Of a DNA stretch of 32,000 nucleotides, positions 1,956 to 19,000 are shown in pieces. The number at the start of each line of letters is the position of its first letter. Positions within the stretch are counted from its first letter, which is position 1. A model generated the notes under the pieces. The model saw nothing but the letters and a program-made list of their open reading frames with translations, made no database searches and was not told the origin of the DNA. The DNA comes from Candidatus Altimarinota bacterium (GTDB taxonomy: Bacteria; Patescibacteriota; Gracilibacteria; UBA1369). The stretch covers positions 90,001-122,000 of the forward strand of contig JBAZYK010000001.1 of assembly GCA_041659405.1 (NCBI GenBank). The letters run 5' to 3'. Position numbers and translations under genes: made by a program.

Positions 1956-1981
1956 AATTATAAAAATCTAAACTAACCAAT

Positions 1982-3625: not shown

Positions 3626-3676
3626 TGGTGATTTTGGGAATTTTCAGAAGCTGAATTTGCGCAATGTCCATTTTTG

Positions 3677-3685
3677 TGTTATGAT
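3677..3685 (+). promoter_or_regulatory. Candidate extended -10 promoter element (TGtTATGAT) for paralog 2
   Basis: TGnTATGAT lies about 33 nt upstream of the ATG at 3718. The block gcaatg...TGnTATnAT..tatgaaaa...aaaacaaatATGGACATCAA recurs upstream of paralog 3 (8112-8170). No convincing -35. Confidence 0.35.
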
Positions 3686-3717
3686 ACTATGAAAATAAAA
3701 ATTTAATCAAAACAAAT

Positions 3718-6870: not shown

Positions 6871-6900
6871 GGATGAGTTTTAGGATAATGCGATGTTCAA

Positions 6901-6952
6901 TGTTGGCCGGCTGCTTGCGGTCAGGAAATCCGCACATCTTGTGACAGGTTTC
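6901..6952 (+). repeat. Direct repeat copy A flanking the AbrB/PIN pair
   Basis: tgttggccggctgcttgcggtcaggaaatccgcacatcttgtgacaggtttc versus 7931-7982 tgtcggccggttgcttgcggtccatgtattcgcacatctcgtgacaggtttc (9 mismatches in 52). Confidence 0.85.
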
Positions 6953-6980
6953 TATCAGCTAATGTTTAATCTGTTTCATG

Positions 6981-7005
6981 AAAAGTCCCCCGGGGGACTT
7001 TTTTT
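6981..7005 (+). terminator. Rho-independent terminator downstream of paralog 2
   Basis: aaaaGTCCCCCGGGGGACttttttt: a perfect 14-nt GC-rich palindrome (6985-6998) followed by a 7-T run, about 110 nt after the stop codon at 6870. Confidence 0.75.
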
Positions 7006-7119
7006 GAAATTGGCGATTCTTCTCTTCCTGAAGCCAGAATTTTCGGATTACCGGAATCTATTTGGGATTGTTTTTCCATCCTGGCAAGATTTTTTTGGTT
7101 TTCAGATTGTGAGCGGGCC
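6985..7119 (-). repeat. Inverted, diverged copy of cassette module Y
   Basis: The reverse complement of 6985-7119 aligns at roughly three quarters identity by eye with 13083-13241. Shared strings include ...gattccggtaatccgaaaattctggcttcaggaagagaagaatcgccaat..gtcccccgggggac. Confidence 0.75.
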
Positions 7120-7183
7120 TTGATTTTTCATTAGTAATTATTCATACTGAAAGTAGAAAAGTTGGAATTTTAAACTTTTGTTT

Positions 7184-7459
7184 ATGAAGAAAATTAGAAT
7201 CGTTCGCACTCAATCCAAAGGCATGGTAACTATTCCGGCGGAATTCCGCCAAAAATTGGGCATAAATGAAAACAGTCTACTGGAAGCGAAAATTGTAAAA
7301 AAAGGAATCTTGTTTTTAAAAATTAATTATAATTCATTGAAAATAGAAAAAAAACAGCCTGGCGAAATTTATTCAGAAAAACAGATTCAAGAGTGGCTTT
7401 TGCGTGACAAATTAGATGCTCGCACCCAAGCCAAAGTAAAAAAACTCTTAAATAAATAA
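7184..7459 (+). CDS. AbrB/SpoVT-type antitoxin (VapB-like)
   Basis: MVTIPAEFRQKLGINENSLLEAKIVKKGILFLK matches the SpoVT-AbrB swapped-hairpin motif. Small ORF ending 6 nt before a PIN gene. ATG at 7184 is preferred over the in-frame TTG at 7178. Confidence 0.7.
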   Translation: MKKIRIVRTQSKGMVTIPAEFRQKLGINENSLLEAKIVKKGILFLKINYNSLKIEKKQPGEIYSEKQIQEWLLRDKLDARTQAKVKKLLNK

Positions 7460-7465
7460 TCCGCC

Positions 7466-7900
7466 ATGATAAAGCTTTTCCTTGATGCAAATATTCTTTT
7501 TGCAGCCACTGCATCTATCAGTGGTGGTTCAAGAGCGCTTTTTGACTTAGCTCAAAAAAAATTGATATCCCTTGTTTCGAGTGAGTATGCTTTACATGAA
7601 GCAAAAATTAATATCGAAAAGAAGCTTGGGCACGAAAAACTCGTTGATTTCTATAAACTTGTGAGCTGGCTTACTGATGTTTATAAAAAGCCACTTACAA
7701 AAAGTGAACTGAGCGCTTTTCAAGAAATTATTGTTGCCAAAGATATTCCAATTTTAGCTGGAGCAAAAAAACTGGAGGTTGATTTCCTTATCACACTCGA
7801 TAAAAAAGACTTTCAAAATATGAAAATGAAAGCGACAAAATTTCCATTTCAAATTCTTTCTCCCGGCGATTTTTTGAGAGCATTTCCGTATAACACGTAG
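7466..7900 (+). CDS. PIN-domain toxin (VapC-like)
   Basis: 144 aa with N-terminal LFLDANILFAA (first PIN acidic residue) and the C-terminal ITLDKKDF motif. Tightly coupled to the upstream AbrB-type gene in the canonical antitoxin-first order. Confidence 0.7.
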   Translation: MIKLFLDANILFAATASISGGSRALFDLAQKKLISLVSSEYALHEAKINIEKKLGHEKLVDFYKLVSWLTDVYKKPLTKSELSAFQEIIVAKDIPILAGAKKLEVDFLITLDKKDFQNMKMKATKFPFQILSPGDFLRAFPYNT

Positions 7901-7930
7901 CGCCGGCTGATTATTCCGCCATTATGTCGA

Positions 7931-8006
7931 TGTCGGCCGGTTGCTTGCGGTCCATGTATTCGCACATCTCGTGACAGGTTTCGACCCTGGCAAGATTTTT
8001 TTTCGG
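7931..8006 (+). repeat. Direct repeat copy B: matches 6901-6952 and is then joined directly to sequence matching 7077-7103
   Basis: After gtgacaggtttc the copy continues gaccctggcaagattttttttcgg, which matches catcctggcaagatttttttggtttt at 7077-7103. Copy B therefore lacks the ~126 nt (6953-7078) that holds the terminator hairpin and most of the inverted Y module. Confidence 0.75.
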
Positions 8007-8111
8007 ATCATGCGCTTTTTTATTTTGGCTTACAGATGCGAACTTTCAACTATTTTCGCCGTCCCGGGACGGAATTTTCACAGAATGTTCTTTGCAATGA
8101 GTGATACTTTG

Positions 8112-8120
8112 TGGTATCAT
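8112..8120 (+). promoter_or_regulatory. Candidate extended -10 promoter element (TGgTATCAT) for paralog 3
   Basis: TGnTATCAT lies about 48 nt upstream of the ATG at 8168. The surrounding block is homologous to the region upstream of paralog 2. Confidence 0.35.
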
Positions 8121-8167
8121 AGTATGAAAAACAAAAATTTATTTAAAAATATTTAACCAAAACAAAT

Positions 8168-11038
8168 ATGGACATCAAGAAATTTATTTCAGAAAAGAAA
8201 GTAGCACTGCTTGTTACAGCAGGTGTTTTAGTTGCCGTAACCGCAGGTGCGTTTTACTTCTCCCAAGGTAGTTTGTTTAAGGGGGCTTTACCTGGACTTA
8301 GGCCAGTAGGCGTAAGTGGAGTTACTGTGACACCTACAACTTTTGATTCAACAAAAGATGGGCAGTCTGTAGATATTACTTTAGACTATTACTTTAACCA
8401 AAGTGATGGGTATAATAGTAAAGTAAATATTAAATTGTTCAAAAATGGAGACTCTTCTCCTGTAGTGGATGTGGATAAGGTTTCCACTGATGGAAAAATT
8501 AATTTTTTTGAATGGCATACTCCTTATTCCAAGGCGTTAGATGGTACTTATACTTTCAAACTTGATTATTTATATAAAGGGCCACTTGATGTTAATGGTG
8601 TTACAAAAACAGTTACTTCCCCACCTTTCACAATTCTGACGTCGGTACCTCCTGGTGGAATGCCCCCGGGTATTCCTGTTGCAGCTATTAATAAAGTTAC
8701 CGTGATACCTGCTAGTTACGAATATTCTGTTGGACAAAGCGCAAATATGAGCTTTACCCTGGATTACTTTTTCCAAAAAGATGATGGAGATAAAGACCCA
8801 AAAGTAACAATCACAGTAATGAAGTCCGGTGGTGGTCTGCTTAAAGATACTGTAGCCAATCCTGCTATGGCCTTATCAGGTAACCAACTTGTAACTAATG
8901 GTGGTGAAAATAAATTTTCCTGGGATAAATCATATGATCCAAATTTAGATGGTACATATTATTTTAAACTTGATTATTCATATCAAAATTCGGATCCGGT
9001 TCCGCAACTTGTAACTTTGTCAGTTAAATCACCAACTTTCACAATTAATCATGTTGCTGCTGTAAAACCAGATGCAAGCTGTAAACCATCTTTAAGCAGT
9101 GTCGTTTCAGGCTCATCAGTGAGTTGGACTGCAACGGTTACTCCTCAAGGCGCTTTGACACCTCTATATCATTGGAGTGGTGATGTAGCTGATGTTTCTC
9201 AGCTTGATATGAAATCACCTGAGTTAAGCTTTACTACTTCCTATAAAACTGTTGGCAAAAAAGCTGTTTATTTCAAGATTCCAGAAGGAATTAATAGTTA
9301 TAAATCTGTACTTTGTGATGGTTTGATGGTTAATGCGTCTGAACAAAAAGTTCCAACTTTAACCGGAACCGCTACCCCAATCAAATATACCTTGGGTCAA
9401 GGTGATATTAGTTTTGATGTAAAGGTTGCTAATGCAGCAGTTGGCAATCATGTAACATTTGCAGAAAAAGGATATCCAGATGCAATTTTGTTAGACAGGC
9501 CATTAATTAATGGCGCTACCGGTTATAAATTCAATCCAACAGATGTAAAATTGGCTGCCGGAAAATATGTAATGCTTGCGACATTATATGATGTAAGTGT
9601 TCAAAAACCTTACAGTGCCAAAAGTATTTCTCTTGATTCTGTGGAAATTCCATTTGAAGTTGTTTCAGCTGGTCAACCTCCTGCTGATAAAGATTTCCCA
9701 GCGGACCTGGCTTGTACTGTTAAACCACTGGTTTCAGCAAAAGTTGGTGATTCCGTTACTTGGTCTGTTAATAACATGATCTCAGGTACTACTTATAGTT
9801 GGAGTGTTTCTGGTTCTGGCGCTTATACAGGTACAAATAAGAATCTCTTGAAGCAGACTGCCCGTTCTTTTACGACTACTTACCCAGGTGCGGTAACGGC
9901 TAATATGACTGTGACTTTGGAACAAGCTGGCTATACTACAAAGAGTGTTGACTGTGGAGAACTTGAAATTGTAGCTGCTGCGGCTCCTGCTGATAAAGAT
10001 TTCCCAGCGAACTTGGCTTGTACTGTTCAACCACAAGGATCGGCAACGGTTGATAATAACGTAACTTGGACTGTTGCTAATGCCCCATCAGGTACAACTT
10101 ATAGTTGGAGTGTTTCTGGTTCTGGCGCTTATACAGGTACAAATAAGAATCTCTTGAAGCAGACTGCCCGTTCTTTTACGACTACTTACCCAGGTGCGGT
10201 AACGGCTAATATGACTGTGACTTTGGAACAAACTGGTTACAAGACAACAACTTTAGCCTGTGGAGAACTTGAAATTGTAGCTGTTTCTCCTCCAGGTCCA
10301 AACTGTGTCGGTTCAAGCTGTCCTCCTACTCCTACCGATTGTGTCGGTTCAAGCTGTCCTCCTGATCGTACTCCCGACTGCGTTGGTACCGCTTGTAATC
10401 CTGAACCTACTCCAACACCAACACCAACACCTACACCTACTCCAACTCCAACACCTACACCTGTTCCGGGATGTGCAGGTTACTATGACATTCCGTTGAA
10501 TTCTACTACATGCCAAAAATATTCTACTATTTTGCAGGATGTAAAAGATCGCGGCATTATGACAGGTACCGCAGATGGCAATTTTGATCCTTATGGTTAC
10601 TTACAACGTGATCAGATTTTGAAGGTGCTTAAGCTGGGTAGACTTGTAAACGAGAAATTATGTACTAATTTGTCACCATTCCCGGATGTTCCTCGTGGTC
10701 TTTGGTCTTGCAGCTTAATTGCTGAAGCACAACAGGCCGGCTGGATTACAGGTTATTTGGATACAGGACTTTACATGCCTTATAATCCGGTTAATCGTGC
10801 TGAATTCACAGCAATATTGTTCCGCATGTTAACTCGTACTTTTAACTTCCATGCTCCTTTGGATGCATCAATTAATTTTAGCGATGTTCCAACAGACGTT
10901 TGGTTCAGCCGTTTTGCGGCTGCCGCCTATAAGTTGGCCTGGTTTAGTGGAACGTTTATGTATCCTGATAAGCCAATGACCAGAATTGAAGTTGCCCAGA
11001 TCATTCATCAATTGTATGTAAATGGACAAATAAATTAA
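8168..11038 (+). CDS. Surface protein paralog 3: N-terminal anchor, duplicated beta-sandwich modules, Cys-bounded Ig-like modules (two in tandem), CVGxxC and PT linker, C-terminal triple SLH-like module
   Basis: 956 aa ORF. N-terminus MDIKKFISEKKVALLVTAGVLVAVTAGAFYFSQGSLFKG. Duplicated ...LDGTYTFKLDY / ...LDGTYYFKLDY modules. Modules CKPSLSS..., CTVKPLVSAKVGDSVTWSV..., CTVQPQGSATVDNNVTWTV.... Motif CVGSSCPP x2 plus CVGTAC, then (PT)n. C-terminal PGCAGYYD block with SLH motifs (FPDVPRGLWSCSLIAEAQQAGWITGY...PVNRAEFTAILFRML). Confidence 0.8.
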   Translation: MDIKKFISEKKVALLVTAGVLVAVTAGAFYFSQGSLFKGALPGLRPVGVSGVTVTPTTFDSTKDGQSVDITLDYYFNQSDGYNSKVNIKLFKNGDSSPVVDVDKVSTDGKINFFEWHTPYSKALDGTYTFKLDYLYKGPLDVNGVTKTVTSPPFTILTSVPPGGMPPGIPVAAINKVTVIPASYEYSVGQSANMSFTLDYFFQKDDGDKDPKVTITVMKSGGGLLKDTVANPAMALSGNQLVTNGGENKFSWDKSYDPNLDGTYYFKLDYSYQNSDPVPQLVTLSVKSPTFTINHVAAVKPDASCKPSLSSVVSGSSVSWTATVTPQGALTPLYHWSGDVADVSQLDMKSPELSFTTSYKTVGKKAVYFKIPEGINSYKSVLCDGLMVNASEQKVPTLTGTATPIKYTLGQGDISFDVKVANAAVGNHVTFAEKGYPDAILLDRPLINGATGYKFNPTDVKLAAGKYVMLATLYDVSVQKPYSAKSISLDSVEIPFEVVSAGQPPADKDFPADLACTVKPLVSAKVGDSVTWSVNNMISGTTYSWSVSGSGAYTGTNKNLLKQTARSFTTTYPGAVTANMTVTLEQAGYTTKSVDCGELEIVAAAAPADKDFPANLACTVQPQGSATVDNNVTWTVANAPSGTTYSWSVSGSGAYTGTNKNLLKQTARSFTTTYPGAVTANMTVTLEQTGYKTTTLACGELEIVAVSPPGPNCVGSSCPPTPTDCVGSSCPPDRTPDCVGTACNPEPTPTPTPTPTPTPTPTPTPVPGCAGYYDIPLNSTTCQKYSTILQDVKDRGIMTGTADGNFDPYGYLQRDQILKVLKLGRLVNEKLCTNLSPFPDVPRGLWSCSLIAEAQQAGWITGYLDTGLYMPYNPVNRAEFTAILFRMLTRTFNFHAPLDASINFSDVPTDVWFSRFAAAAYKLAWFSGTFMYPDKPMTRIEVAQIIHQLYVNGQIN
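9677..10288 (+). repeat. Tandem duplication, 2 x 306 bp (102 aa Ig-like module), inside paralog 3
   Basis: Both units start with cctgctgataaagatttcccagcg. 9791-9925 is identical base for base to 10097-10231 (135 nt), whereas the preceding ~70 nt (KPLVSAKVGDSVTWSVNNMIS vs QPQGSATVDNNVTWTVANAPS) and the following ~40 nt are diverged. Confidence 0.9.
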
Positions 11039-11112
11039 TCATGGAGAATGCAGGTGAATAAGCAGCTGACGCAAAAAAAACGCGCTCGCTCGAGGAAGGA
11101 AATCAAAAAAAA

Positions 11113-11141
11113 TTGCCTTTCTCACAAAAAAATTATATATT
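11113..11141 (+). promoter_or_regulatory. Candidate sigma70-type promoter of the pilin gene
   Basis: TTGCCT (11113-11118), a 17-nt spacer, then TATATT (11136-11141), 29 nt upstream of the ATG at 11170. Confidence 0.45.
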
Positions 11142-11169
11142 TATTAAGAATTTCTTTAACAAAATACAC

Positions 11170-11697
11170 ATGAAAACAAACTTAAAAAATTGGTCACAGG
11201 GTGCACTCAAGGGCTTCACGCTCATTGAATTACTCATCGTGATCACAATTATCGGTATCCTAGCAGTGGCTTTGTTGCCATCAGTACTAGGTGCTCCAGC
11301 CCGCGCAAGAGACGCGGCTAGAAAAGCGGATTTGAATAACATTGTTGCGGGATTGGAAACTTATAATAGTGATAATCAAAAGTATCCTGATACTGCTGGT
11401 AATTGTAGTGCTGTTGATGGTCTAACAAATTTCTCACAATATTTTCAGGGGGGCAAAATACCAAAAGATCCTCAGACAGGTTCATATCTATACTGTGGAG
11501 TTACAGGGAATGGGTCAGTGTCATATTACATCGTTTCCAAAGTTGAAATCGCAGGTGATGGAAATGCTTATTACGCTAGCGCTCCTTCAACTTCTATATT
11601 AGCTGATGTTTTTGGAGGTGCGACAATAATTGATCAATGTAAGCCAAAAAAATCAGCTGCAGCAAATGATTGTAATTACTATTTAATTGTAAAATAA
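11170..11697 (+). CDS. Type IV pilin / pseudopilin with class III (prepilin) signal
   Basis: MKTNLKNWSQGALKG|FTLIELLIVITIIGILAVALLPS is the canonical prepilin peptidase site G/FTLIEL with Glu at +5. C-terminal Cys pair (DQCKPKKSAAANDCNYY) as in pilin D-regions. The ORF-track start at 11113 (TTG) overlaps the putative promoter and adds 19 non-pilin residues, so ATG 11170 is preferred. Confidence 0.85.
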   Translation: MKTNLKNWSQGALKGFTLIELLIVITIIGILAVALLPSVLGAPARARDAARKADLNNIVAGLETYNSDNQKYPDTAGNCSAVDGLTNFSQYFQGGKIPKDPQTGSYLYCGVTGNGSVSYYIVSKVEIAGDGNAYYASAPSTSILADVFGGATIIDQCKPKKSAAANDCNYYLIVK

Positions 11698-11719
11698 TTT
11701 ATTAGATGGATTTTTAAAA

Positions 11720-11750
11720 AGCTCTCCCTTAAACCCGGAGGGCTTTTTTT
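11720..11750 (+). terminator. Rho-independent terminator after the pilin gene; founder copy of the cassette junction
   Basis: AGCTCTCC-cttaaaccc-GGAGGGCT forms an 8-bp stem with one G-T pair, followed by TTTTTTT. Degenerate copies of the same sequence plus the TTGTTGTYT junction occur at about 12905-12940 and 14040-14062. Confidence 0.65.
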
Positions 11751-11891
11751 GTTGTTTAAAGAATTGCGCTGCGTTTTTTGTACCAATGTGTTCGGATTGA
11801 GTGGGGCGCGCGGCGCCTGCACTGCTTGCGCACTTTCGCGCTGACCTTTGGATTGCACCACTTTAGGTGAGTCAAAAAACTCCGTAGCATT

Positions 11892-12025
11892 TTAAAACAA
11901 TTTTGCCATAATTCAAAAGTGGCGTGATTTGCGTTTTGGTATTCCGATTTTACGGCTTACATATGCCACATTCTCAATTCGCACCCTTCCTCCCCGGGGA
12001 GGGATTACCGGCCAAGGCGCACTTT
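11892..12025 (+). repeat. Non-coding module X, copy 1 (~135 nt)
   Basis: ttaaaacaattttgccataattcaaaagtggcgtgatttgcgttttggtattccgattttacggcttacatatgccacattctcaattcgcacccttCCTCCCCGGGGAGGgattaccggccaaggcgcacttt. Only 2-3 differences from copy 2. Contains the 14-nt palindrome 11989-12002. Confidence 0.9.
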
Positions 12026-12090
12026 CTTGTGTCGGCGGTTTTGGCTCGATGGGGTTGGAGTGTGCCCGGGGCTGACGAATTTTTTCAAAT

Positions 12091-12249
12091 AAAGAATTGG
12101 ACAAGAGGACGCAGCCGTTTGGTTCGCAAAGCCAAAAAACAAAGAATTTGCCAATATGGGAAAATAGTCCACAATCGACTCCGGTAATCCGTAAATTTTG
12201 GCTTCAGGAAAAGAATAATCGCCAATTTTAAAAAAGTCCCCCGGGGGAC
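12091..12249 (+). repeat. Non-coding module Y, copy 1 (~159 nt), ending in the palindrome GTCCCCCGGGGGAC
   Basis: aaagaattgg...ttcgcaaagccaaaaaacaaagaatttgccaatatgggaaaatagtccacaatcgactccggtaatccgtaaattttggcttcaggaaaagaataatcgccaattttaaaaaaGTCCCCCGGGGGAC. Palindrome at 12236-12249, preceded by A6 (12230-12235), which is a hairpin plus T6 on the minus strand. Confidence 0.9.
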
Positions 12250-12253
12250 ATCC

Positions 12254-12350
12254 GATGATTTTATGCCGATTTCATAATCAGTTTAATTTTTTTTAATGTT
12301 GGAAGATTAAACTGGACAGCGAATCTGGAATTTTTGCTAAACGGATTTTT
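12254..12350 (+). promoter_or_regulatory. Module Z, copy 1: conserved upstream region / 5' leader of PIN cassette gene 1
   Basis: gatgattttatgccgatttcataatcagttt...ttttaatgttggaagattaaactggacagcgaatctggaatttttgctaaacggattttt directly precedes the ATG. It differs from copy 3 (14278-14374) at about six positions by eye. Contains a CATAAT -10-like hexamer and the inverted motif TTATG-N7-CATAA. The function (promoter, operator or leader) is inferred. Confidence 0.5.
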
Positions 12351-12752
12351 ATGGAAACTATCATGTTGGACAGCTCGGTTTGGATATCGTTATTGGGACA
12401 GGATGTGAACACGGAAAATGCTGAAAAAATTCATGATCACATTAAATCACTAAAATGTGAGATAATATTACCCATAATTATTTATGTAGAAGTTACAAAT
12501 AATATTATTAAACTGGATAAAACCGGCTTGATTAGGGGGAATTTCGAGGAAATTATTAGATTAAATAAAATAAAAATCCTTTTTCCGTCAGAGAAATTTT
12601 GGTACAATGCGATTGTTAATTGTACAAAAGGAATAAGGCTTAAAACGCTCGATTTGCTGATTCTTAACAGTGTCCTTGAATATAAAGTCGGAGAATTCTT
12701 CACTTTTGATAAAAAACTTAAAGCAGCATATGATTTAATCAAAAAATTATGA
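12351..12752 (+). CDS. PIN-domain protein (VapC-like), cassette 1
   Basis: 133 aa. The four PIN acidic positions are readable: MLDSSVWI (D), IIYVEVTNN (E), LKTLDLLIL (D), FFTFDKKL (D). Paralogous to the ORFs at 13454 and 14375. Confidence 0.8.
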   Translation: METIMLDSSVWISLLGQDVNTENAEKIHDHIKSLKCEIILPIIIYVEVTNNIIKLDKTGLIRGNFEEIIRLNKIKILFPSEKFWYNAIVNCTKGIRLKTLDLLILNSVLEYKVGEFFTFDKKLKAAYDLIKKL

Positions 12753-12874
12753 AAAAATCTGTAAAAAGAAAATCAAAAAAACTGGAGGAGCAAAAACTGC
12801 TCATAAAAATCCGTTTGGCACGTGTAAAAATACCGGGCAATGATTCCGTAAAGTACATACAAAGCAACAGGTAA
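12749..12874 (+). CDS. Small basic ORF (41 aa) overlapping the PIN stop codon (ATGA); candidate cognate partner
   Basis: MKKSVKRKSKKLEEQKLLIKIRLARVKIPGNDSVKYIQSNR. Below the ORF-track length cut-off and found by hand. The C-terminus DSVKYIQSNR is conserved in the equivalent ORFs at 13857 and 14775. Confidence 0.55.
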   Translation: MKKSVKRKSKKLEEQKLLIKIRLARVKIPGNDSVKYIQSNR

Positions 12875-12939
12875 GCTTGAGGATACGAGAGCGTGAGGTC
12901 AAAAGCCCTCCCCTTAAATCCGGCGTTTTTTTGTTGTCT

Positions 12940-13074
12940 TTAAAACAATTTTGCCATAATTCAAAAGTGGCGTGGTTTGCGTTTTGGTATTCCGATTTTA
13001 CGGCTTACATATGCCACATTCTCAATTCACACCCTTCCTCCCCGGGGAGGGATTACCGGCCAAGGCGCACTTTT
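12940..13074 (+). repeat. Non-coding module X, copy 2
   Basis: Near-identical to 11892-12025. Palindrome CCTCCCCGGGGAGG at 13037-13050. Absent from cassette 3. Confidence 0.9.
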
Positions 13075-13082
13075 GTTCGTAT

Positions 13083-13241
13083 AAAGAATTGCGCAGGGTA
13101 ACGCAGAAGTTTGGCTCGCAAAGCCAAAAAACAAAGAATTTGCCAATATGGGAAAATGATTCGCAACAGACTCCGGTAATCCGTAAATTTTGGCTTCAGG
13201 AAGAGAAGAATCGCCAATTTTAAAAAAGTCCCCCGGGGGAC
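13083..13241 (+). repeat. Non-coding module Y, copy 2
   Basis: Aligns end to end with 12091-12249 and 14063-14221. Palindrome at 13228-13241, preceded by A6 (13222-13227). Confidence 0.9.
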
Positions 13242-13336
13242 AATTTATGAAGCAGGAACCCGGCGGAGTGCCATACGGTGGCTTGCCGCTGCGGAGGTGA
13301 AATTTGGGGCGGTAATTATGCGCACTTTTTCAGGCC

Positions 13337-13412
13337 AATGATTTTATGCCGATTTCATAATCCGTTTAAAAAATTTTAATGTCGAAAGATTAAACTGGAC
13401 AGCGAAATCTAG
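13337..13412 (+). promoter_or_regulatory. Module Z, copy 2 (partial; its 3' part is replaced by unrelated sequence)
   Basis: aatgattttatgccgatttcataatccgtttaaaaaattttaatgtcgaaagattaaactggacagcgaaatct matches copies 1 and 3. The similarity is lost about 40 nt before the start codon. Confidence 0.45.
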
Positions 13413-13453
13413 CCGGCGGTTAGGTTTTTCGGTTATCATTGATTATGTTACTT

Positions 13454-13876
13454 ATGAAAACGGCACTTTTGGACAGCTCGGTTTGGATATCGTCTTTTAT
13501 CAAAGATGTTCATGAACAAAAAGTGAAATCAATTTTTGATAAGTTAATGATGGAAAATGCAAAAATAATATTACCGAAAATTGTTTATGCTGAGATTATG
13601 AATAACCTCATTCGCGTTGATCACACTTGCAAACTTTCCCGCAAAGCAAAGGAAAATCTATTAAATAATGTAAAAATAAGTGTTATCGACTTTAAAGCGG
13701 AATTCTGGCATAAGAAAATCGAGTACTATGCAAAATCGGTCCGGCTCAAAACTATGGATCTTTTGATTCTTGCATCTGCATTTGAATTTAATGTAAATGA
13801 GTTTTATACTTTTGATGTGAAATTGATGAATGCTTTTAATATTTTAAAATCGCGCCATGATAAAAAAAACAATTAA
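13454..13876 (+). CDS. PIN-domain protein (VapC-like), cassette 2
   Basis: MKTALLDSSVWISSF... aligns with METIMLDSSVWIS of the paralogs. Acidic positions D (LLDSS), E (IVYAEIMNN), D (LKTMDLLIL), D (FYTFDVKL). ATG 13454 chosen by alignment; in-frame TTG 13439 and ATG 13445 are possible. Confidence 0.8.
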   Translation: MKTALLDSSVWISSFIKDVHEQKVKSIFDKLMMENAKIILPKIVYAEIMNNLIRVDHTCKLSRKAKENLLNNVKISVIDFKAEFWHKKIEYYAKSVRLKTMDLLILASAFEFNVNEFYTFDVKLMNAFNILKSRHDKKNN

Positions 13877-13991
13877 ACGAAAGAAACAGGAAAAACGGGA
13901 TTTAAAATTTCTTATCAAGGAGCTTGATAAGGTGCAGATTAGCGTTGGAAAGAAGTTTGATTCCGTAAAGTTCATACACAGTAATAGATAA
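13857..13991 (+). CDS. Small basic ORF (44 aa) overlapping the 3' end of PIN gene 2 by 20 nt
   Basis: MIKKTIKRKKQEKRDLKFLIKELDKVQISVGKKFDSVKFIHSNR. Conserved C-terminus DSVKFIHSNR. Confidence 0.55.
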   Translation: MIKKTIKRKKQEKRDLKFLIKELDKVQISVGKKFDSVKFIHSNR

Positions 13992-14062
13992 GCCTAAGGA
14001 TGCGAGAGTGAGGTCTATTCAAAGAGACTTATCTTTACCCCTGGAGGGCTTTTTTGTTGTCT

Positions 14063-14221
14063 AAAGGATTGCGCAAGGGAACGTAGCAGTTTGGCTCGCA
14101 AAGCCGAAAAACAAAGAATTTGCCAATATGGGAAAATAGTCCACAATCGACTCCGGTAATCCGTAAATTTTGGCTTCAGGAAGAGAAGAATCGCCAATTT
14201 TAAAAAAGTCCCCCGGGGGAC
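14063..14221 (+). repeat. Non-coding module Y, copy 3
   Basis: Aligns with 12091-12249 and 13083-13241. Palindrome at 14208-14221, preceded by A6 (14202-14207). Here Y directly follows the terminator-like junction because module X is missing. Confidence 0.9.
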
Positions 14222-14277
14222 AATTTATGAAGCAGGAACCCGGCGGAGTGCCATACGGGGGCTTGCTCCTGCGAGCC

Positions 14278-14374
14278 GATGATTTTATGTCGATTTCATA
14301 ATCAGTTTAAAAATTTTTAATGTCGGAAGATTAAACTGGACAGTGAATCTGGAATTTTTGCTAAACGGATTTTT
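14278..14374 (+). promoter_or_regulatory. Module Z, copy 3: conserved upstream region / 5' leader of PIN cassette gene 3
   Basis: Near-identical to 12254-12350. The identity continues through the first ~45 nt of the CDS (atggaaactatcatgttggacagctcggtttggatatcgtt). Confidence 0.5.
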
Positions 14375-14782
14375 ATGGAAACTATCATGTTGGACAGCTC
14401 GGTTTGGATATCGTTTTTTGCTGAAGATTGCCATACTCCTGAGGCTAAAAGGATATTATCTAGAATAGAATCCGGTGAAGACATAATATTAATTCCATCA
14501 ATTATTTATGCCGAAATTATTAATAATCTCACGAAATTAGACAAAACCCTTAAATCAGTAAGTGTGGCAGAAATAGCTTTTAAAAATATAAAAATAAAAT
14601 TTATGAATCCGGACAGGAAATTTTGGTTTAAAAAACTCAAGCACTATTCCCTTAAAGTACAATTAAAAACAATGGACCTCGCCATTCTTGCAATTGCATT
14701 TGAATATAAAGTAAATCAGTTATATAGTTTTGATATAAAGCTGCAGAAGGCCTACGAATATCTAAGAAATCATTATGAATAA
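14375..14782 (+). CDS. PIN-domain protein (VapC-like), cassette 3
   Basis: 135 aa: METIMLDSSVWISFF..., IIYAEIINN, LKTMDLAIL, LYSFDIKL. The same D-E-D-D pattern as the paralogs. Confidence 0.8.
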   Translation: METIMLDSSVWISFFAEDCHTPEAKRILSRIESGEDIILIPSIIYAEIINNLTKLDKTLKSVSVAEIAFKNIKIKFMNPDRKFWFKKLKHYSLKVQLKTMDLAILAIAFEYKVNQLYSFDIKLQKAYEYLRNHYE

Positions 14783-14921
14783 GAAAAGAATTAAAATTGT
14801 AACAAAAAAAATAGAAATATTGCCTACTGATGACTTCAGGACGATTATAAAAAAAATGGATAAAATCCGGATAAAAATTAAAGGATTTAACTCCGTGAAG
14901 TTCATACACAGTAATAGGTAA
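14775..14921 (+). CDS. Small basic ORF (48 aa) overlapping the PIN gene 3 stop (ATGAATAA)
   Basis: MNKKRIKIVTKKIEILPTDDFRTIIKKMDKIRIKIKGFNSVKFIHSNR. Conserved C-terminus NSVKFIHSNR. Confidence 0.55.
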   Translation: MNKKRIKIVTKKIEILPTDDFRTIIKKMDKIRIKIKGFNSVKFIHSNR

Positions 14922-14983
14922 GCCTAAAAAGGCGTGTTTTCCCGTAACTGCGCGCGACGATTGAAATTATTTCACGGCTGCGG

Positions 14984-15652
14984 CTATTTGGCGGAAGACT
15001 TTTCCAGTCTGATAACGCGCTTGTTGAGTTGTTTGATTTTTATGTTCATTGGGGCAATCGTTTTGTAGATTGCGTTAAATTTTTCGTCCTGCTGATCAAA
15101 TCTTTCATTGATTTCGGAGAATTTCTGATTCATGTAGTTTTCCATGCTAATATTTGAATCTTTTAAATCCTCAACGTCTTCACGAAGCATGGCAACTTCC
15201 ATCTTTAGTATGCCAATTTCTTCCCTCATTTGTAACATTTCCGCTATTACTTGCCCCAGCCCTAAAGATAAAGCGCCAATATCACGAAGCATGGGTTTGA
15301 AATATTTTTCCTCAAGTTTTGCTTCAAAGCTTTTTTCAAATTCGGCGAAACGTGTGTCAAACTTTTCATCCATCTTTGCGTCCATCCTCTTTTCGAACTC
15401 CGCAAACCGCAGATCAAACTTTTCATCCATCTTTGCATCCATCTTCTTTTCGAACTCCGCAAACCGCAGATCAAACTTTTCATCCATCTTTGCGTCCATC
15501 TTCTTTTCGAACTCCGCAAACCGCAGGTCGAACTTTTCGTCCATCTTTGCGTCCATCTTCTTTTCAAATTCGGCAAATCTAACCTTGAGCTGCGCGTCGA
15601 GGACCGTTTCGATTAAATCTGCCAGTTGTTTTAGGGTTGCTTGGTCAAACAT
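14984..15652 (-). CDS. Coiled-coil protein with tandem 19-aa repeats; function unknown
   Basis: 222 aa ORF. RFAEFEKKMDAKMDEKFDL occurs four times plus a degenerate fifth copy. Then a charged heptad-like C-terminal half (EEIGILKMEVAMLREDVEDLKD..., IKIKQLNKRVIRLEKS). No TM segment or signal peptide seen. Confidence 0.7.
   Translation of the reverse strand: MFDQATLKQLADLIETVLDAQLKVRFAEFEKKMDAKMDEKFDLRFAEFEKKMDAKMDEKFDLRFAEFEKKMDAKMDEKFDLRFAEFEKRMDAKMDEKFDTRFAEFEKSFEAKLEEKYFKPMLRDIGALSLGLGQVIAEMLQMREEIGILKMEVAMLREDVEDLKDSNISMENYMNQKFSEINERFDQQDEKFNAIYKTIAPMNIKIKQLNKRVIRLEKSSAK
15353..15580 (-). repeat. 4 x 57-bp tandem repeat inside the coiled-coil gene
   Basis: Plus-strand unit aaacttttcatccatctttgcgtccatcttcttttcgaactccgcaaaccgcagatc. 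The first three units differ by 1-3 nt, the fourth is more diverged, and a degenerate fifth extends to about 15305. Confidence 0.9.
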
Positions 15653-16008: not shown

Positions 16009-19000
16009 ATGTCTGAATACAAAAACATACAACGAGTTATTGCCGGCCTGATCCTCTTCTTTTTGAACGTCCAAATTTTGGAAGTTCCGCTTAGTAAAGC
16101 GGCTCAGGACTGGGCAGCGCAGGGGCAAGCAAACGCCGCATCCGCCCAAGGCGCTTTATCCACCATTCCATCCGCAAAAGCCGTTGATCCAAATCAAAAT
16201 CCGGCAACTTTGCCTCATTTGGGAATCATCGCCATTTTGGTTGATGACGATTTGATGAACAATAAACAAAATTATGCCGGGCTAACGGCTCAATATGCAA
16301 AAGACCTGAATACTCAATTGCTTTCCGACCGTGTTCATCGTTATGCGATTGACGCGCAGAGCTCGCAGCCGAATACAAAATCGCTAATAATTAAAACTTC
16401 CCCAACCTCAAAGGTTGAAGATATTGCAAATAGCTTAGAAAAGTTGTACCTGGAAGGTGATGGCAGCAAGGGCAAAATCACCAACCTGGTTGGAGTTGTC
16501 ACAATTGGTGATGTGCCTTTGCCGGTTGTGAATAAAAATGGTTATCGTTTTGTAAGCATGATGCCTTATACCGATTTTGAGGATAAGGTTTATATTTTTG
16601 ACGCGGCCAGTAGCGACTATCTGCCAAATCCAAATTTAAAATTTGCCAAAGAAGAAGTCTGGCAGGGCGTGATCAAACCTCCACTAAAAGGCGAAGAAGG
16701 CAATAATCTTTTGGCTTCTTATTTCGACAAAAATCATCTGTATCACGCCGGAAATGCTGATTATTCCGTTTTTGATAAAAAGCTTTTATTTGCGGATCTG
16801 TACAACGAATTCAAATCCATGAATAAATTGCAGTTTAATAGTTATTTGCGCTACTTGGCGCACTGGGCCGATTTTGCTTATCTGCGTTTTAATAAACATT
16901 TAGCTGATCAGTTTTTGCAGGAAGTTACGGGCAAACTTAAGGAGCAGGGCGTACCAACAAGTACCAAGGATGCACAGGCGACAGCGGCAAAACAGCAGGC
17001 TGAATTAAATCAGGCCGGAATCCCAAGTGATGGGTTGTTAACTCCCCCATGTGATAAAGATTGCGAGGATGCCAAGAGTAAAAATCCAAAACTTCCCAAG
17101 GGCGACAATAATGTGCAAGCCGCGCCCTCTTCAACCAATAGCATGCCGGATATTCAAACCCGCACGCTCATTTTGAATTTTGTAAGTAAGTACGTTCAGC
17201 TTTTTGATAAATTTTTATCAACAATTAATGATTGGGCCAATTATACCGGCCGCTATAAGGCTGCTTATGAGGATGGCAATGGCAACACTTTAAGCGACAT
17301 TCACAGTATTCCGGCGCTTATAAGTATCAAGGATCAAAATACCAGTGAATATTTTAAACAGGTAAATGACAGCATTGAAAGTGCGATAGACCAACGTGCC
17401 CAGGAACTGCAAAACAGCATGTTAATGATCCAAAATGTTCACTTGAGTGGACAGGTTTTGCTTAGTGGACAACCAAAACCACAAGACCTTTTACCATGGG
17501 ATTTTGTGAATTTTTCGGAACATACTTTTGGCAATTTTAAGACTTTATCCGTAAATGGCGTTCCGGCTTTTGCAATGCAAAGCACGGCTGATTGCAGTAT
17601 TTATCGTGGATCAAACAACAATGGCACAAATTCGGTGATGACAAAATCAATCAAGATTTACAATCCAAAATCGGCAAGTCAAAGTGAAAATTTTGCCGAT
17701 GACATTGTTAATTTTGGTGGATGTTTGGGCAATAATTATAGCCACCCTGAACGCTGTTTCCCGGAAGCTGCGATTGTTCCGGTTTTTGACCTTGTGGGGT
17801 CCAAAGAAGTTGATCCTGCAACCGTTCCGGAAAGTGCCACAAATTACCGCGCCTGCTATGATTTTAAAGAGAAAAATAACTTTGCAAAATACATTGATCA
17901 GGTTGGAACATACCTGAAATTATTTAAATTATTGAAAGATGATCCGACCGCACAAGACTCGCTCGATCCAATATTAAAAACGTTTGGGTCTTCACATCTT
18001 CCCACGTCACAAATATTTATTTTTATATCGCCAAATGTGTTTATCACCCTGGCTGATGTTTTAAAGAAATTAAATATTCCCGCTGACGACTGGGGGCAGA
18101 TTGGTGAAGGCTTTTTGGCTAATCTAAAACAAAATCAGTATGTGCTAAATAACCCTTTTCCCGGTGTTGATTCTTTGACTATCAATTTAACCGCCGAGGC
18201 GGCTGTGGATAATTTGAAAAATGCTCCGATAATTTTGCCAACAATTTCTTATCATAAAGAGCCGACTGCGGATGTTCATAATAAGCCTTATACAAGTATT
18301 AATGAACAATTGCAGGCCGGTGGATTTACCGAAAGTTTACCAAGTGATAATCCCCGTTATGTGGCTTTCCAAGACAAACAAGGGTACTTTCAGAAAATTT
18401 ATTATCCGGATGCTTTTTCGGCAAAAAGTTATAACGATTATTTAAAATCATTACAGGACACCGAAAATAAAATTCTTGATCTGTATGGAAAATTTGACGT
18501 TAATCTGGCTCAAAAAAATGAACACTTCTTAACGAAATTACTTGGGGAACAGGATCAACAAAACGCTAAGGACAAGAGCATTTTTGACATTATTGGTGCC
18601 GCAAAATTGACGGATGCTTTTTCCTGGAAAGATTTGAATATCGATCAAAAGCATAATTATGTATTTACCGAATATTTGGGCGCAAAGGCCGATCCATATG
18701 TGGAAAAAATGAAGAGTGGTTATGAAGCCATGTATTTTGTGAGCCGTGGAAGTACGGATACTTTCCAAACGCAATTTAATGGCGATTATCCGGAAGATGA
18801 CAAGGATTTAAGTTTGGATAGTGCTTTGCATCCGGCCAATACTCCGGAAACTTCACCAAGTGATGCCGGTTATGCTAAAGCCAAAGAAGAAGGTGAAGGC
18901 ATCTTTATTTTTGAATGGTTTAAAGAAATTGTTAAGTGGGTCAAAGAAACCACCAATAAATTAAGCGCGACTATCCAACTTGAGCCGGTTTGCGGCGTGA

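What the first reader, a model, noticed from the sequence alone, without database searches (positions are those of the whole stretch)
11720..14925. Tandem array of three ~1 kb PIN cassettes with near-identical non-coding flanks and strongly diverged coding cores
Three consecutive units have PIN starts at 12351, 13454 and 14375. They share four elements. First, a terminator-like junction (GGAGGGCTTTTTTGTTGT) whose first copy is the functional-looking pilin terminator at 11720-11750. Second, module Y (12091-12249, 13083-13241, 14063-14221). Third, module Z plus the first ~45 nt of the CDS; 12254-12395 and 14278-14419 differ at only about six positions by eye. Fourth, a conserved 3' boundary (TCCGTRAAGTWCATACAMAGYAAYAGRTAAGCYT). 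Between these boundaries the PIN proteins are only about 40-45% identical by eye. Flanks far better conserved than cargo point to cassette exchange, gene conversion or recombination at defined boundaries, not to an old duplication that aged uniformly. No integrase, transposase or recombinase is visible in the window, so the mechanism is unexplained.
Basis: partly seen in the sequence, partly recalled or inferred. Interest (0 to 1): 0.8.

Follow-up and report, generated by a model that had tools for sequence, protein, structure and literature searches.

The report
Three PIN toxin genes, homogenised flanks
Three old, tandemly repeated toxin-antitoxin-like gene pairs (a PIN RNase plus a tiny partner protein) sit next to a pilin gene, and ordinary recombination between the copies keeps their non-coding flanks almost identical; this is a neat example of a known process, not a new kind of mobile cassette system.

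Summary
Three head-to-tail units each carry a VapC-like PIN gene and a 41-48 aa ORF that overlaps its stop. The flanks are 85-100% identical, against 40-60% nt and 42-45% aa identity in the cores. An independent assembly has the identical array.

The 5' one is the conserved N-terminal catalytic motif (METxxLDSSVWIS). The 3' one is the conserved C-terminus (SVK[FY]I[HQ]SNR*) of the small partner, found after the PIN gene, or its decayed remnant, in every relative read downstream.

The cores are ancient paralogs: dS is 1.2-2.2, and PIN3 groups with PINs of other organisms. The flanks are not strongly constrained. Between two strains they diverge at about the synonymous rate (10-15%, dS 0.17). 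Flank similarity within one genome therefore reflects concerted evolution by short gene-conversion tracts. The evidence is mosaic site patterns, zero synonymous differences in the first 14 codons of PIN1 versus PIN3, and exact runs of 18 nt or more found only in the flanks.

No integrase, attC site, terminal inverted repeats or known RNA family is involved. Module Y also occurs once, inverted, beside a second unrelated PIN toxin-antitoxin pair. Its function is unknown.

Verdict: a new variant of a known kind, of moderate interest.

The parts
11726..11750 (+). Intrinsic terminator of the pilin gene (11170-11697). It is the intact founder copy of the 'junction' motif.
   Evidence: Terminator scan. 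Sequence.
11751..11890 (.). GC-rich spacer found only in unit 1. It starts with a 24-nt partial copy of the 5' end of Y (11746-11769).
   Evidence: blastn of modules. Fold z-score -0.5 and 0.1.
11891..12025 (+). Module X, copy 1. It contains the hairpin CCTCCCCGGGGAGG.
   Evidence: Repeat family D6, 99% identical to copy 2. Fold z-score -2.4 on the plus strand.
12079..12249 (+). Module Y, copy 1. It ends in the palindrome 12236-12249.
   Evidence: Scores as a minus-strand terminator.
12252..12350 (+). Module Z, copy 1: the AT-rich region upstream of PIN1, presumed to hold the promoter and 5' UTR.
12351..12752 (+). PIN1, a VapC-like PIN-domain protein of 133 aa.
   Evidence: PF01850 E=1.9e-10. 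Catalytic D7/E47/D101/D120 conserved.
12749..12874 (+). Small partner ORF 1 (41 aa, ends ...SVKYIQSNR). It overlaps the PIN1 stop (ATGA). Putative antitoxin.
12898..12937 (+). Degenerate copy of the pilin terminator (3' arm deleted). Junction between units 1 and 2.
   Evidence: Repeat family D9. Not detected by the terminator scan.
12939..13073 (+). Module X, copy 2.
13071..13241 (+). Module Y, copy 2. Palindrome at 13228-13241.
13242..13333 (+). Spacer between Y and Z. Shared in part with unit 3 and absent from unit 1.
13334..13453 (+). Module Z, copy 2. The conserved block is 13334-13406; the 5' UTR is diverged.
13454..13876 (+). PIN2, a VapC-like protein of 140 aa. NCBI names it a VapC family toxin.
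13857..13991 (+). Small partner ORF 2 (44 aa, ends ...SVKFIHSNR).
14018..14060 (+). Degenerate terminator copy (only the 3' arm and T-run remain). Junction between units 2 and 3.
14051..14221 (+). Module Y, copy 3. Palindrome at 14208-14221.
14222..14274 (+). Spacer between Y and Z in unit 3.
   Evidence: 92.5% identical to unit 2 but only 84.6% identical to the ortholog in strain L001.
14275..14374 (+). Module Z, copy 3, with the 5' UTR.
14375..14782 (+). PIN3, a VapC-like protein of 135 aa.
   Evidence: PF01850. AlphaFold pLDDT 95; best PDB match M. tuberculosis VapC20, TM 0.73-0.76. Ortholog dN/dS 0.03/0.17.
14775..14921 (+). Small partner ORF 3 (48 aa, ends ...SVKFIHSNR).
   Evidence: Against the L001 ortholog: an in-frame indel, 5 synonymous and 3 non-synonymous changes.
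6971..7103 (-). Fourth, inverted copy of module Y (about 84% identical). Here its hairpin plus T7, read on the plus strand, forms the terminator after the 1050-aa gene.
7178..7900 (+). A second, unrelated TA pair (MazE/AbrB-type antitoxin plus PIN). It is bracketed by the direct repeats W (6897-6952 and 7927-7982).

Best explanation
The region is a tandem triplication of a two-gene, toxin-antitoxin-like operon. Each unit encodes a VapC-like PIN RNase followed by a translationally coupled, lysine-rich mini-protein of 41-48 aa that ends in SVK[FY]I[HQ]SNR. I take the mini-protein to be the antitoxin, in reversed gene order. Each unit also carries the intergenic DNA that lay upstream of the founder copy, next to the pilin terminator.

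The three coding cores are old paralogs that have diverged to saturation. This plausibly keeps each toxin paired with its own partner.

The non-coding flanks (modules X, Y, Z and the 5' UTR) and the first ~40 nt of the CDS are repeatedly homogenised by short gene-conversion tracts of about 70-140 nt, made by the cell's general homologous recombination. Conversion tracts stop where sequence identity stops. On the 5' side this is just after the codons for the conserved catalytic N-terminus. On the 3' side it is near the codons for the conserved C-terminus of the small protein. This gives sharp 'cassette-like' boundaries without any site-specific recombinase.

Shown here:
- the anatomy of the array;
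- the PIN fold and conserved catalytic residues;
- the conserved small partner;
- ancient cores next to young flanks;
- mosaic site patterns in the flanks.

Inferred:
- the antitoxin role of the small ORF;
- a promoter in Z;
- the recombination pathway;
- selection for insulation between the three pairs.
For: Anatomy and identity profile.

PIN identity:
- Pfam PF01850 above cut-off.
- D7/E47/D101/D120 invariant in 23 homologs.
- Model pLDDT 95, with VapC toxins as the top PDB matches.

Small partner:
- It is present right after the PIN gene or its remnant in all 10 related units that could be read downstream, always with the same C-terminal motif.
- The ortholog comparison shows an in-frame indel and mostly synonymous change.
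- Two decayed loci keep the small ORF although the PIN is truncated or fragmented (L002, second unit; L016).

Ancient cores:
- dS 1.2-2.2 and dN about 0.5 between paralogs.
- PIN3 clusters with P0004 and P0005 from other organisms, not with PIN1 or PIN2.

Young, weakly constrained flanks:
- Ortholog comparison, unit 3 versus strain L001: Z 90.4% and the Y-Z spacer 84.6% identical, against CDS 94.9% and dS 0.17.
- Paralogous flanks within one genome are 88-100% identical.
- 4 of the 7 Z sites that differ between the orthologs carry the unit-1 base in L001.
- The first 14 codons of PIN1 versus PIN3 have pS = 0. The same codons of PIN3 versus L002 have pS = 0.65.
- Site patterns are clustered along the flank (26 switches against 33.0 +/- 3.2 expected, P = 0.02).
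- Exact runs of 18 nt or more (up to 110 nt) lie only in the flanks, plus one 20-nt run in the small-ORF tail.

Other support:
- An independent assembly is identical.
- RecJ is encoded about 7-9 kb left of the window.
- Tandem duplication of PIN-antitoxin pairs is reported for A. fulgidus (PMC2701414).
Against: - The antitoxin role is untested. The small protein matches no Pfam, NCBIfam or PADLOC family. It has no recognisable DNA-binding fold. It lies downstream, unlike canonical VapB.
- The PINs score far below the NCBIfam VapC equivalog cut-off (19-26 bits against 80).
- The ortholog calibration rests on a single 1.25-kb contig of one other strain (L001). That contig covers only unit 3 and 24 nt of Y.
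- The clustering test is only modestly significant (P = 0.02).
- Some sub-blocks may be under real constraint. The Y core 12177-12208 is invariant in the three array copies and differs at 3 of 32 positions in the fourth. In L002 and L003, non-coding blocks downstream of the pair are 89-95% identical while the coding sequence is about 72% identical, and an upstream ~48-nt block is near-identical by eye.
- The inverted Y copy beside another TA pair is not explained by intra-array conversion.
Confidence: 0.7

Rival explanations
1. The flanks are conserved by purifying selection. They would encode functional non-coding elements (promoter or operator, a small RNA, a terminator or insulator) shared by all three operons. 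The coding cores simply evolved faster.
For: - The Y core is invariant in the three array copies and 29 of 32 identical in the fourth, dispersed copy.
- The palindrome scores as a canonical intrinsic terminator on the minus strand in all copies. At the fourth copy it serves as the plus-strand terminator of the 1050-aa gene.
- In L002 and L003 the non-coding blocks around the pair are better conserved than the coding sequence: downstream blocks are 89% and 95% identical against about 72% for the coding sequence, and the block upstream of the PIN start is near-identical over ~48 nt by eye.
- The non-coding flanks have 40-46% GC, against 27-37% in other intergenic DNA of the window.
Against: - Between strains, Z and the Y-Z spacer diverge 10-15%. 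This is about the synonymous rate (dS 0.17) and more than the adjacent CDS.
- The 5' UTR of unit 2 is only 52% identical to those of units 1 and 3.
- X is dispensable in unit 3, and the spacer is dispensable in unit 1.
- No Rfam family matches. Fold z-scores are unremarkable for Y, Z and the whole 11751-12090 stretch.
- Synonymous sites of the first 14 codons are also identical between PIN1 and PIN3.
Confidence: 0.15
2. The array is a mobile cassette array, integron-like or otherwise. PIN cargo genes would be exchanged at defined sites by a dedicated recombinase encoded elsewhere in the genome.
For: - The units are co-oriented and have conserved junctions and variable cargo.
- PIN3 is closer to PINs of other organisms than to its neighbours.
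- TA genes are common integron cargo (my own knowledge).
Against: - No integrase, transposase or recombinase is found in the 32-kb window or in 9.3 kb further left.
- There are no attC-like imperfect palindromes or terminal inverted repeats at the junctions. The only inverted repeats found are the short hairpins.
- Both 'boundaries' lie inside conserved coding motifs.
- The modules were not found with other cargo in genome, metagenome, viral, plasmid or phage collections.
- GC3 of the PIN genes equals that of host genes, and the low GC of the PIN genes is a family trait seen in every host.
Confidence: 0.05
3. X and Y are small non-autonomous mobile or dispersed repeat elements (MITE- or REP-like). 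They would have inserted independently upstream of each PIN gene and would also mediate rearrangements.
For: - A fourth Y copy lies in the opposite orientation, 5 kb away, beside another TA pair.
- X is present in only two units, 134 of 135 identical, with similar short sequences (TTTTGTTGTCT and TTTTGTTCGTAT) on its two sides in unit 2.
- The second TA pair is bracketed by the W direct repeats.
Against: - There are no terminal inverted repeats and no clean target-site duplications.
- No further copy occurs in 41 kb of this genome.
- No match was found in any collection searched.
- Homogeneity extends through Z into the CDS, which insertion upstream of a gene cannot explain.
Confidence: 0.08
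4. The array is an assembly artefact: a collapsed or chimeric repeat.
For: The source is a short-read metagenome assembly. Repeats of up to 110 nt of exact identity are present.
Against: - A second assembly (ENA k141_184062, 167 kb) is identical through the whole array, yet differs by one 57-nt unit in the neighbouring coiled-coil gene. It is therefore not a copy of the same record.
- The units are distinct enough (cores about 50% identical) to be placed uniquely.
- The contig of the related strain L001 shows the same unit 3 and downstream gene.
Confidence: 0.02

Closest known systems
VapBC-type (PIN-domain) type II toxin-antitoxin systems, including the tandemly duplicated DUF104-PIN pairs of Archaeoglobus fulgidus (Makarova et al. 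2009, PMC2701414)
   Same: - A small PIN protein with the four acidic catalytic residues and a VapC-like fold.
- A tightly coupled small partner gene.
- Paralogous pairs arranged in tandem.
- The partner is retained when the toxin decays.
   Different: - The partner is downstream of the toxin, not upstream.
- The partner is only 41-58 aa, very basic, and without a recognisable AbrB, RHH, PHD or HTH DNA-binding domain. It matches no Pfam, NCBIfam or PADLOC family.
- The family is rare: 25 PIN clusters and 12 partner clusters among 5.8 billion proteins.
- The PINs score below the NCBIfam VapC cut-off.
Partial concerted evolution of paralogous gene families by segmental gene conversion. Examples from my own knowledge, not tested here: Helicobacter pylori babA/babB with conserved 5' and 3' ends and a divergent middle; Neisseria pilE/pilS; Mycoplasma surface-lipoprotein families with a shared 5' UTR and signal peptide.
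   Same: - Conserved 5' UTR plus N-terminal codons and a conserved 3' end surround a diverged middle.
- Similarity is mosaic, and paralogs within a genome are as alike as or more alike than orthologs.
- General homologous recombination suffices.
   Different: - The genes are cytoplasmic TA-like nucleases, not surface antigens.
- No evidence was seen that whole cores are swapped or that expression switches.
- Here the homogenised part is mostly non-coding.
Chromosomal integron cassette arrays, for example the Vibrio superintegron with its near-identical VCR attC sites and many TA cassettes (my own knowledge)
   Same: Co-oriented units with highly similar inter-unit repeats, variable cargo and TA content.
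   Different: - No IntI and no attC structure.
- The repeats are 300-600 nt long and include the promoter region and the coding ends.
- The cargo is always the same gene family.

Membership tests
PIN-domain / VapC toxin | Sequence match to the PIN domain model above its curated threshold | tested here: met
   PF01850 scores 41.8, 48.5 and 47.1 bits against a cut-off of 23.6.
PIN-domain / VapC toxin | Four conserved acidic active-site residues | tested here: met
   D7, E47, D101 and D120 are invariant in the three paralogs and in 23 homologs.
PIN-domain / VapC toxin | PIN (Rossmann-like alpha/beta/alpha) fold resembling solved VapC toxins | tested here: met
   Model pLDDT 95. Best PDB matches are Mtb VapC20, VapC from VapBC complexes and PAE0151, with TM 0.64-0.76. 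No match was found by sequence alone.
PIN-domain / VapC toxin | NCBIfam VapC equivalog score at or above its cut-off | tested here: not met
   NF047959 scores 19-26 bits against a cut-off of 80.
PIN-domain / VapC toxin | Ribonuclease activity and toxicity | not testable with these tools
   Needs expression and cleavage assays.
Type II toxin-antitoxin system (VapBC-like) | Two small, co-oriented, tightly linked genes conserved as a pair | tested here: met
   A 4-20 nt overlap in all three units. The small ORF follows the PIN gene or its remnant in all 10 related units that could be read downstream.
Type II toxin-antitoxin system (VapBC-like) | Antitoxin upstream of the toxin, with an N-terminal DNA-binding domain (canonical VapB) | tested here: not met
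   No conserved ORF lies upstream. Substitutions in the Y ORFs are non-synonymous or break the frame. The partner is downstream and matches no antitoxin family.
Type II toxin-antitoxin system (VapBC-like) | The partner neutralises the toxin by direct binding | not testable with these tools
The only indirect support is that the partner is retained at two loci with a decayed PIN.
Concerted evolution by gene conversion | Paralogous segments within a genome are as similar as, or more similar than, expected from the ortholog or neutral divergence | tested here: met
   Y-Z spacer: paralogs 92.5% against ortholog 84.6%. 5' UTR: paralogs 100% against ortholog 96%. Cores: paralogs 52-57% against ortholog 95%. 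Paralog dS 1.2-2.2 against ortholog 0.17.
Concerted evolution by gene conversion | Mosaic, spatially clustered phylogenetic signal | tested here: met
   Blocks in which units 1 and 3, 2 and 3, or 1 and 2 agree. Permutation test P = 0.02.
Integron gene-cassette array | An IntI tyrosine recombinase next to the array | tested here: not met
   None among the ORFs of the window or the 9.3 kb to its left. The rest of the genome could not be read.
Integron gene-cassette array | attC sites (imperfect 55-140 nt palindromes with R''/R' cores) after each cassette | tested here: not met
   The inverted-repeat search finds only the 14-nt hairpin and two weak pairs. No GTTRRRY core lies at the junctions (read).
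MITE / dispersed repeat element | Terminal inverted repeats and target-site duplications | tested here: not met
   None found for X or Y.
MITE / dispersed repeat element | Many dispersed copies in the genome | tested here: inconclusive
   Four Y copies in 41 kb, one of them outside the array. No hits in the collections.
Structured non-coding RNA | Match to a known family, or unusual folding stability or covariation | tested here: not met
   No Rfam match. Fold z-scores range from -0.8 to +1.3 for Y and Z, and reach -2.4 for X on the plus strand only. There are too few diverged copies to test covariation.

The most novel reading that the evidence does not exclude
The homogenised flanks might not be a passive by-product. 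They could be maintained recombination anchors that let whole PIN-partner cores be swapped, deleted or amplified, in a pilE/pilS-like variation system for a defence or toxin module. Alternatively or additionally, module Y, which is found beside two unrelated PIN TA pairs in opposite orientations, could be a new PIN-associated small RNA or insulator element specific to this CPR (Candidate Phyla Radiation) lineage.
Probability: 0.08. Interest if true: 0.75.

Novelty: new variant of a known kind. Interest (0 to 1): 0.35.

Why it matters
This is a clean, quantifiable case of partial concerted evolution in a bacterial toxin-antitoxin array. Three ancient paralogs keep diverged toxin and partner cores while sharing freshly homogenised regulatory DNA. 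It bears on how paralogous TA pairs stay insulated from one another yet are regulated alike.

It also shows how cassette-like sharp boundaries can arise from ordinary homologous recombination, limited by sequence identity. This is a caution against reading such patterns as evidence of a dedicated cassette machinery.

In addition, it points to a rare, unannotated mini-protein partner of VapC-like PINs, encoded downstream of the toxin. The family was seen on only a few contigs; the only taxonomy label available is 'Candidatus Gracilibacteria' for the source MAG (metagenome-assembled genome). If confirmed as an antitoxin, it would add a new antitoxin type to the VapBC repertoire.

Tried and rejected
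- **Known RNA families.** Rfam found nothing for the window at gathering thresholds, for the array at E<=10, or for L001-L003. Only noise hits appeared, such as CcsR1 at 14.5 bits.
- **Folding stability.** X, Y, Z and 11751-12090 were folded on both strands. Only X on the plus strand was mildly low (z = -2.4).
- **Coding potential of X and Y.** ORFs exist in two frames. The plus-frame ORF carries stop codons in the array copies where the fourth copy is open. In the minus frame, all three differences in the core are non-synonymous. The 83-aa X-Y ORF has no homolog outside its own contig.
- **Y core in public collections.** There were no hits in genome contigs, metagenome contigs or viral contigs. 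blastn of the flanks against plasmids and phages found nothing.
- **PIN-profile scans.** The genome collection gave 0 loci, the metagenome collection gave 1 short locus, and the viral collection gave 0.
- **Apparent homology of X/Y to non-coding blocks in L002 and L003.** By eye there is a match of 26 of 31 positions around CCCCGGGG...ACCNGCCAANGCG. blastn at E<=0.01 and MAFFT did not support it, so I do not rely on it.
- **Z-like block upstream of PIN in L002 and L003.** The alignment to the window's Z is ambiguous in AT-rich sequence.
- **Alternative genetic code.** NCBI used table 25. This was rejected as relevant: about 13,000 codons contain no in-frame TGA.
- **Foreign origin of the cores by composition.** Rejected. 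GC3 equals that of host genes, and low GC is a family trait.
- **PADLOC.** Only weak hits (PDC-M07B at E about 1e-3 for PIN1; PDC-M02B at E=2.3e-5 over 80 residues for PIN2) and nothing for PIN3.

Full report

Yes. The window holds three head-to-tail units downstream of a type IV pilin gene (11170-11697; N_methyl and T2SSG domains).
- The PIN ORFs start at 12351, 13454 and 14375. All three match Pfam PF01850 well above its threshold.
- The repeat finder recovers:
  - module Y as a three-copy family (12079, 13071, 14051);
  - module Z plus the start of the CDS (12252-12394 versus 14276-14418, 95%);
  - module X (11891-12025 versus 12939-13073, 99%);
  - the junction motif and the 3' motif.
- A three-way alignment with a 40-column sliding window gives 85-100% identity across X, Y, Z and the first ~40 nt of the CDS. 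Identity then drops abruptly to 40-60% in the cores.
- The PIN proteins are 42.1, 45.5 and 44.4% identical.
- The array is not an assembly artefact. An independent ENA assembly (167-kb contig, L012) is identical from window 3454 to 15469, yet differs by one 57-nt repeat unit in the adjacent coiled-coil gene. A 1.25-kb contig from a related strain (L001, PIN 95% identical) shows the same unit 3 and downstream gene. It breaks inside Y and inside the coiled-coil repeats, as short-read assemblies do at repeats.

**2. Corrections to the description**

(a) Only the pilin terminator (11726-11742 plus a T-run) passes a terminator scan. The other two junction copies have lost part of the stem.

(b) The '3' boundary' is coding.
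- Each PIN stop is overlapped by a small ORF (12749-12874, 13857-13991, 14775-14921; 41, 44 and 48 aa).
- Its last residues are SVK[YF]I[QH]SNR, followed by the stop.
- The same mini-ORF follows the PIN gene, or its decayed remnant, in all 10 related units that could be read downstream (on L001, L002 twice, L003, L008, L011, L013-L016). PIN identity there goes down to about 36-40%.
- The motif is [DN][SAV][VL]K[FYW][IVL]x[SKA][NH]R*.
- Against the L001 ortholog it shows an in-frame 3-nt indel, five synonymous changes and three non-synonymous changes. It therefore behaves as a real gene.

(c) The conserved 'first 45 nt of the CDS' encode the family's most conserved motif, ME-T-x-x-L-D-S-S-V-W-I-S. 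This motif contains the first catalytic Asp.

(d) Y ends in the perfect palindrome GTCCCCCGGGGGAC, preceded by A6. This scores as an intrinsic terminator on the minus strand in all three units.

(e) A fourth Y copy (about 84% identical over 133 nt) lies inverted at 6971-7103. There its hairpin plus T7 acts as the plus-strand terminator of the 1050-aa surface-protein gene. It sits just upstream of a second, unrelated TA pair (MazE/AbrB 7178-7459 and PIN 7466-7900), which is itself bracketed by the direct repeats 'W'.

**3. What the genes are**
- The three PINs keep all four acidic active-site residues: D7, E47, D101 and D120.
- The PIN3 model is confident (pLDDT 95, pTM 0.86). Its best PDB matches are VapC toxins: M. 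tuberculosis VapC20, several VapBC complexes, and the R. felis and Shigella VapC proteins, with TM about 0.7.
- A sequence-only search of the PDB finds nothing. The NCBIfam VapC equivalog cut-off is not reached. This is therefore a distant VapC-like subfamily.
- PIN3 versus its L001 ortholog gives dN 0.03 and dS 0.17, which indicates purifying selection on a functional gene.
- The small partner matches no Pfam, NCBIfam or PADLOC family. The family is rare: 25 PIN clusters and 12 partner clusters in 5.8 billion proteins, and 6 hits in an exhaustive HMMER scan.
- I infer that the partner is the antitoxin, for three reasons:
  1. It is strictly conserved and translationally coupled to the PIN gene.
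  2. Its terminal Arg is invariant. C-terminal arginines of VapB antitoxins reach into the VapC acidic pocket in solved complexes; this is my recollection, not tested here.
  3. At the two decayed loci seen, the PIN is truncated or fragmented while the small ORF stays intact (L002 second unit, L016). This is the asymmetry expected of a toxin and its antitoxin.
- The inference is unproven. The gene order (toxin first) and the absence of a DNA-binding domain differ from canonical VapBC.

**4. Why flanks and cores differ**

The cores are ancient.
- Paralog dS is 1.2-2.2 (saturated) and dN is about 0.5.
- In a neighbour-joining tree, PIN3 groups with PINs of other organisms (P0004 at 70% and P0005 at 57% identity). 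PIN1 and PIN2 are separate deep branches.

The flanks are not strongly constrained.
- Between the window and strain L001, orthologous Z is 90.4% identical and the Y-Z spacer 84.6%.
- This is as divergent as synonymous sites (pS 0.149) and more divergent than the CDS (94.9%).

Yet within one genome the paralogous flanks are 88-100% identical.
- Spacer, units 2 and 3: 92.5%.
- 5' UTR, units 1 and 3: 27 of 27.
- X, units 1 and 2: 134 of 135.

Further observations point the same way.
- Four of the seven Z sites that differ between the orthologs carry the unit-1 base in L001.
- The first 14 codons of PIN1 and PIN3 have no synonymous difference. The same codons differ at pS 0.65 between PIN3 and its closer relative in L002. 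Protein constraint therefore cannot explain the identity.
- Which two units agree changes in blocks along the flank (1=3, then 2=3, then 1=3). There are fewer switches than in permutations (26 against 33.0 +/- 3.2, P = 0.02).
- Indels are also mosaic. X occurs in units 1 and 2, the spacer in units 2 and 3, and the 5' UTR type in units 1 and 3.

Together these are the signatures of repeated short gene-conversion tracts, that is, concerted evolution confined to the flanks.

**5. Why the boundaries are sharp without a recombinase**
- Exact identity runs of 18 nt or more between units (up to 110 nt) occur only in X, Y, Z and the first ~40 nt of the CDS. The one exception is a 20-nt run in the small-ORF tail. 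None occurs in the cores.
- Homologous recombination needs a minimal stretch of near-perfect identity. In E. coli this is roughly 20-30 nt (established knowledge, recalled).
- Conversion can therefore start and resolve only in the flanks. It stops where identity collapses, which is directly after the codons of the conserved N-terminal motif. The process reinforces itself.
- No integrase or transposase occurs in the window or in the 9.3 kb to its left. That stretch does encode RecJ.
- No attC-like palindromes or terminal inverted repeats occur at the junctions.
- The neighbouring tandem SLH surface-protein paralogs show the same pattern of conserved 5' UTR, N-terminus and C-terminus around a diverged middle. 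This suggests that the whole region is shaped by the same general process.

**6. What the non-coding modules do**

This remains open.
- Z occupies the promoter and 5' UTR position.
- No Rfam family matches. Folding stability is unremarkable. No coding signal is present. No copy was found in any searchable collection.
- The one feature with a plausible role is the Y palindrome as a bidirectional or minus-strand terminator. In unit 3 it would stop antisense read-through from the convergent coiled-coil gene (14984-15652, minus strand). This is an inference.
- Some sub-blocks may be constrained: the Y core is invariant in the array, and non-coding blocks around the pair are conserved in L002 and L003. 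Purifying selection probably adds to conversion locally.
- The inverted Y beside a second PIN TA pair is the one observation that my main explanation does not cover. It could reflect an older duplication, a dispersed repeat, or a functional link.

**7. Comparison with what is known**
- Functionally, each unit works like a VapBC-type type II TA module. It is not a canonical member, because of the downstream mini-partner without a DNA-binding domain and the score below the equivalog cut-off.
- Tandem duplication of PIN-antitoxin pairs has been described for A. fulgidus (PMC2701414).
- Segmental gene conversion that keeps the ends of paralogs alike while the middles diverge is well known in surface-antigen families (recalled, not tested here).
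- It is not an integron: IntI and attC were tested and not found. It is not a MITE by the usual criteria.

**8. Verdict**

The reading as cassettes that need an unexplained mechanism is not supported.

The finding is a new variant of a known kind: a rare VapC-like module with a downstream mini-partner, in a tandem array that shows partial concerted evolution. Interest is moderate (0.35).

The most novel reading not excluded is programmed core shuffling through the flanks, or Y as a new PIN-associated RNA element. I put it at about 8%.

Noticed in passing
window 6885-8003: A second, unrelated TA pair (MazE/AbrB-type antitoxin 7178-7459 plus PIN 7466-7900) is bracketed by direct repeats: W (6897-6952 and 7927-7982, 82% identical) plus CCTGGCAAGATTTTTTT (7089-7105 and 7985-8001). 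The left copy also contains an inverted copy of module Y (6971-7103).
   Followed up: partly
window 14984-15652 (-), repeats 15306-15590: A coiled-coil protein gene contains 57-nt (19-aa) tandem repeats. The independent ENA assembly has one unit fewer (203 versus 222 aa), so copy number varies within the population.
   Followed up: partly
window 1960-2108, 3695-3844, 8147-8183; 3031-3639, 6264-6885, 10466-11001: Three tandem SLH-domain surface-protein paralogs (547, 1050 and 956 aa) share a conserved 5' UTR plus N-terminus (80-92% nt) and a conserved C-terminal SLH part (69-71%), with diverged middles. This is the same 'conserved ends' pattern as in the PIN array.
   Followed up: no
window 12750-12764 (PIN1 stop); NCBI protein MFA5828961.1: NCBI translates PIN1 as 137 aa (...KKLGKNL), i.e. 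with genetic code 25 (TGA = Gly), for this 'Candidatus Gracilibacteria' MAG. However, about 13,000 codons in the window and its left extension contain no in-frame TGA, and TGA ends 2 of 25 genes. The standard code fits better.
   Followed up: partly
L016 1440-1725; L002 1138-1577: Two decayed loci in other organisms. One has a PIN fragment without its N-terminus, the other a 95-aa 5'-truncated PIN. Each is still followed by an intact small partner ORF.
   Followed up: partly
window 9654-10283: The 956-aa surface-protein gene contains an internal ~310-nt tandem duplication (86-88% identical).
   Followed up: no
L002 1634-1860 and L003 1665-1821: Non-coding blocks lie downstream of the PIN pair and upstream of the next gene (a glycosyltransferase in L003). 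They are 89-95% identical between two organisms whose PIN genes are only 72% identical at nt level. No Rfam match was found. They may be an uncharacterised leader or small RNA.
   Followed up: partly
window 16009-31959: A single 5316-aa ORF (SLH, FG-GAP, TSP3-like and invasin-like hits) lies immediately downstream of the array. It is a giant surface protein, of a kind I recall as common in CPR bacteria.
   Followed up: no
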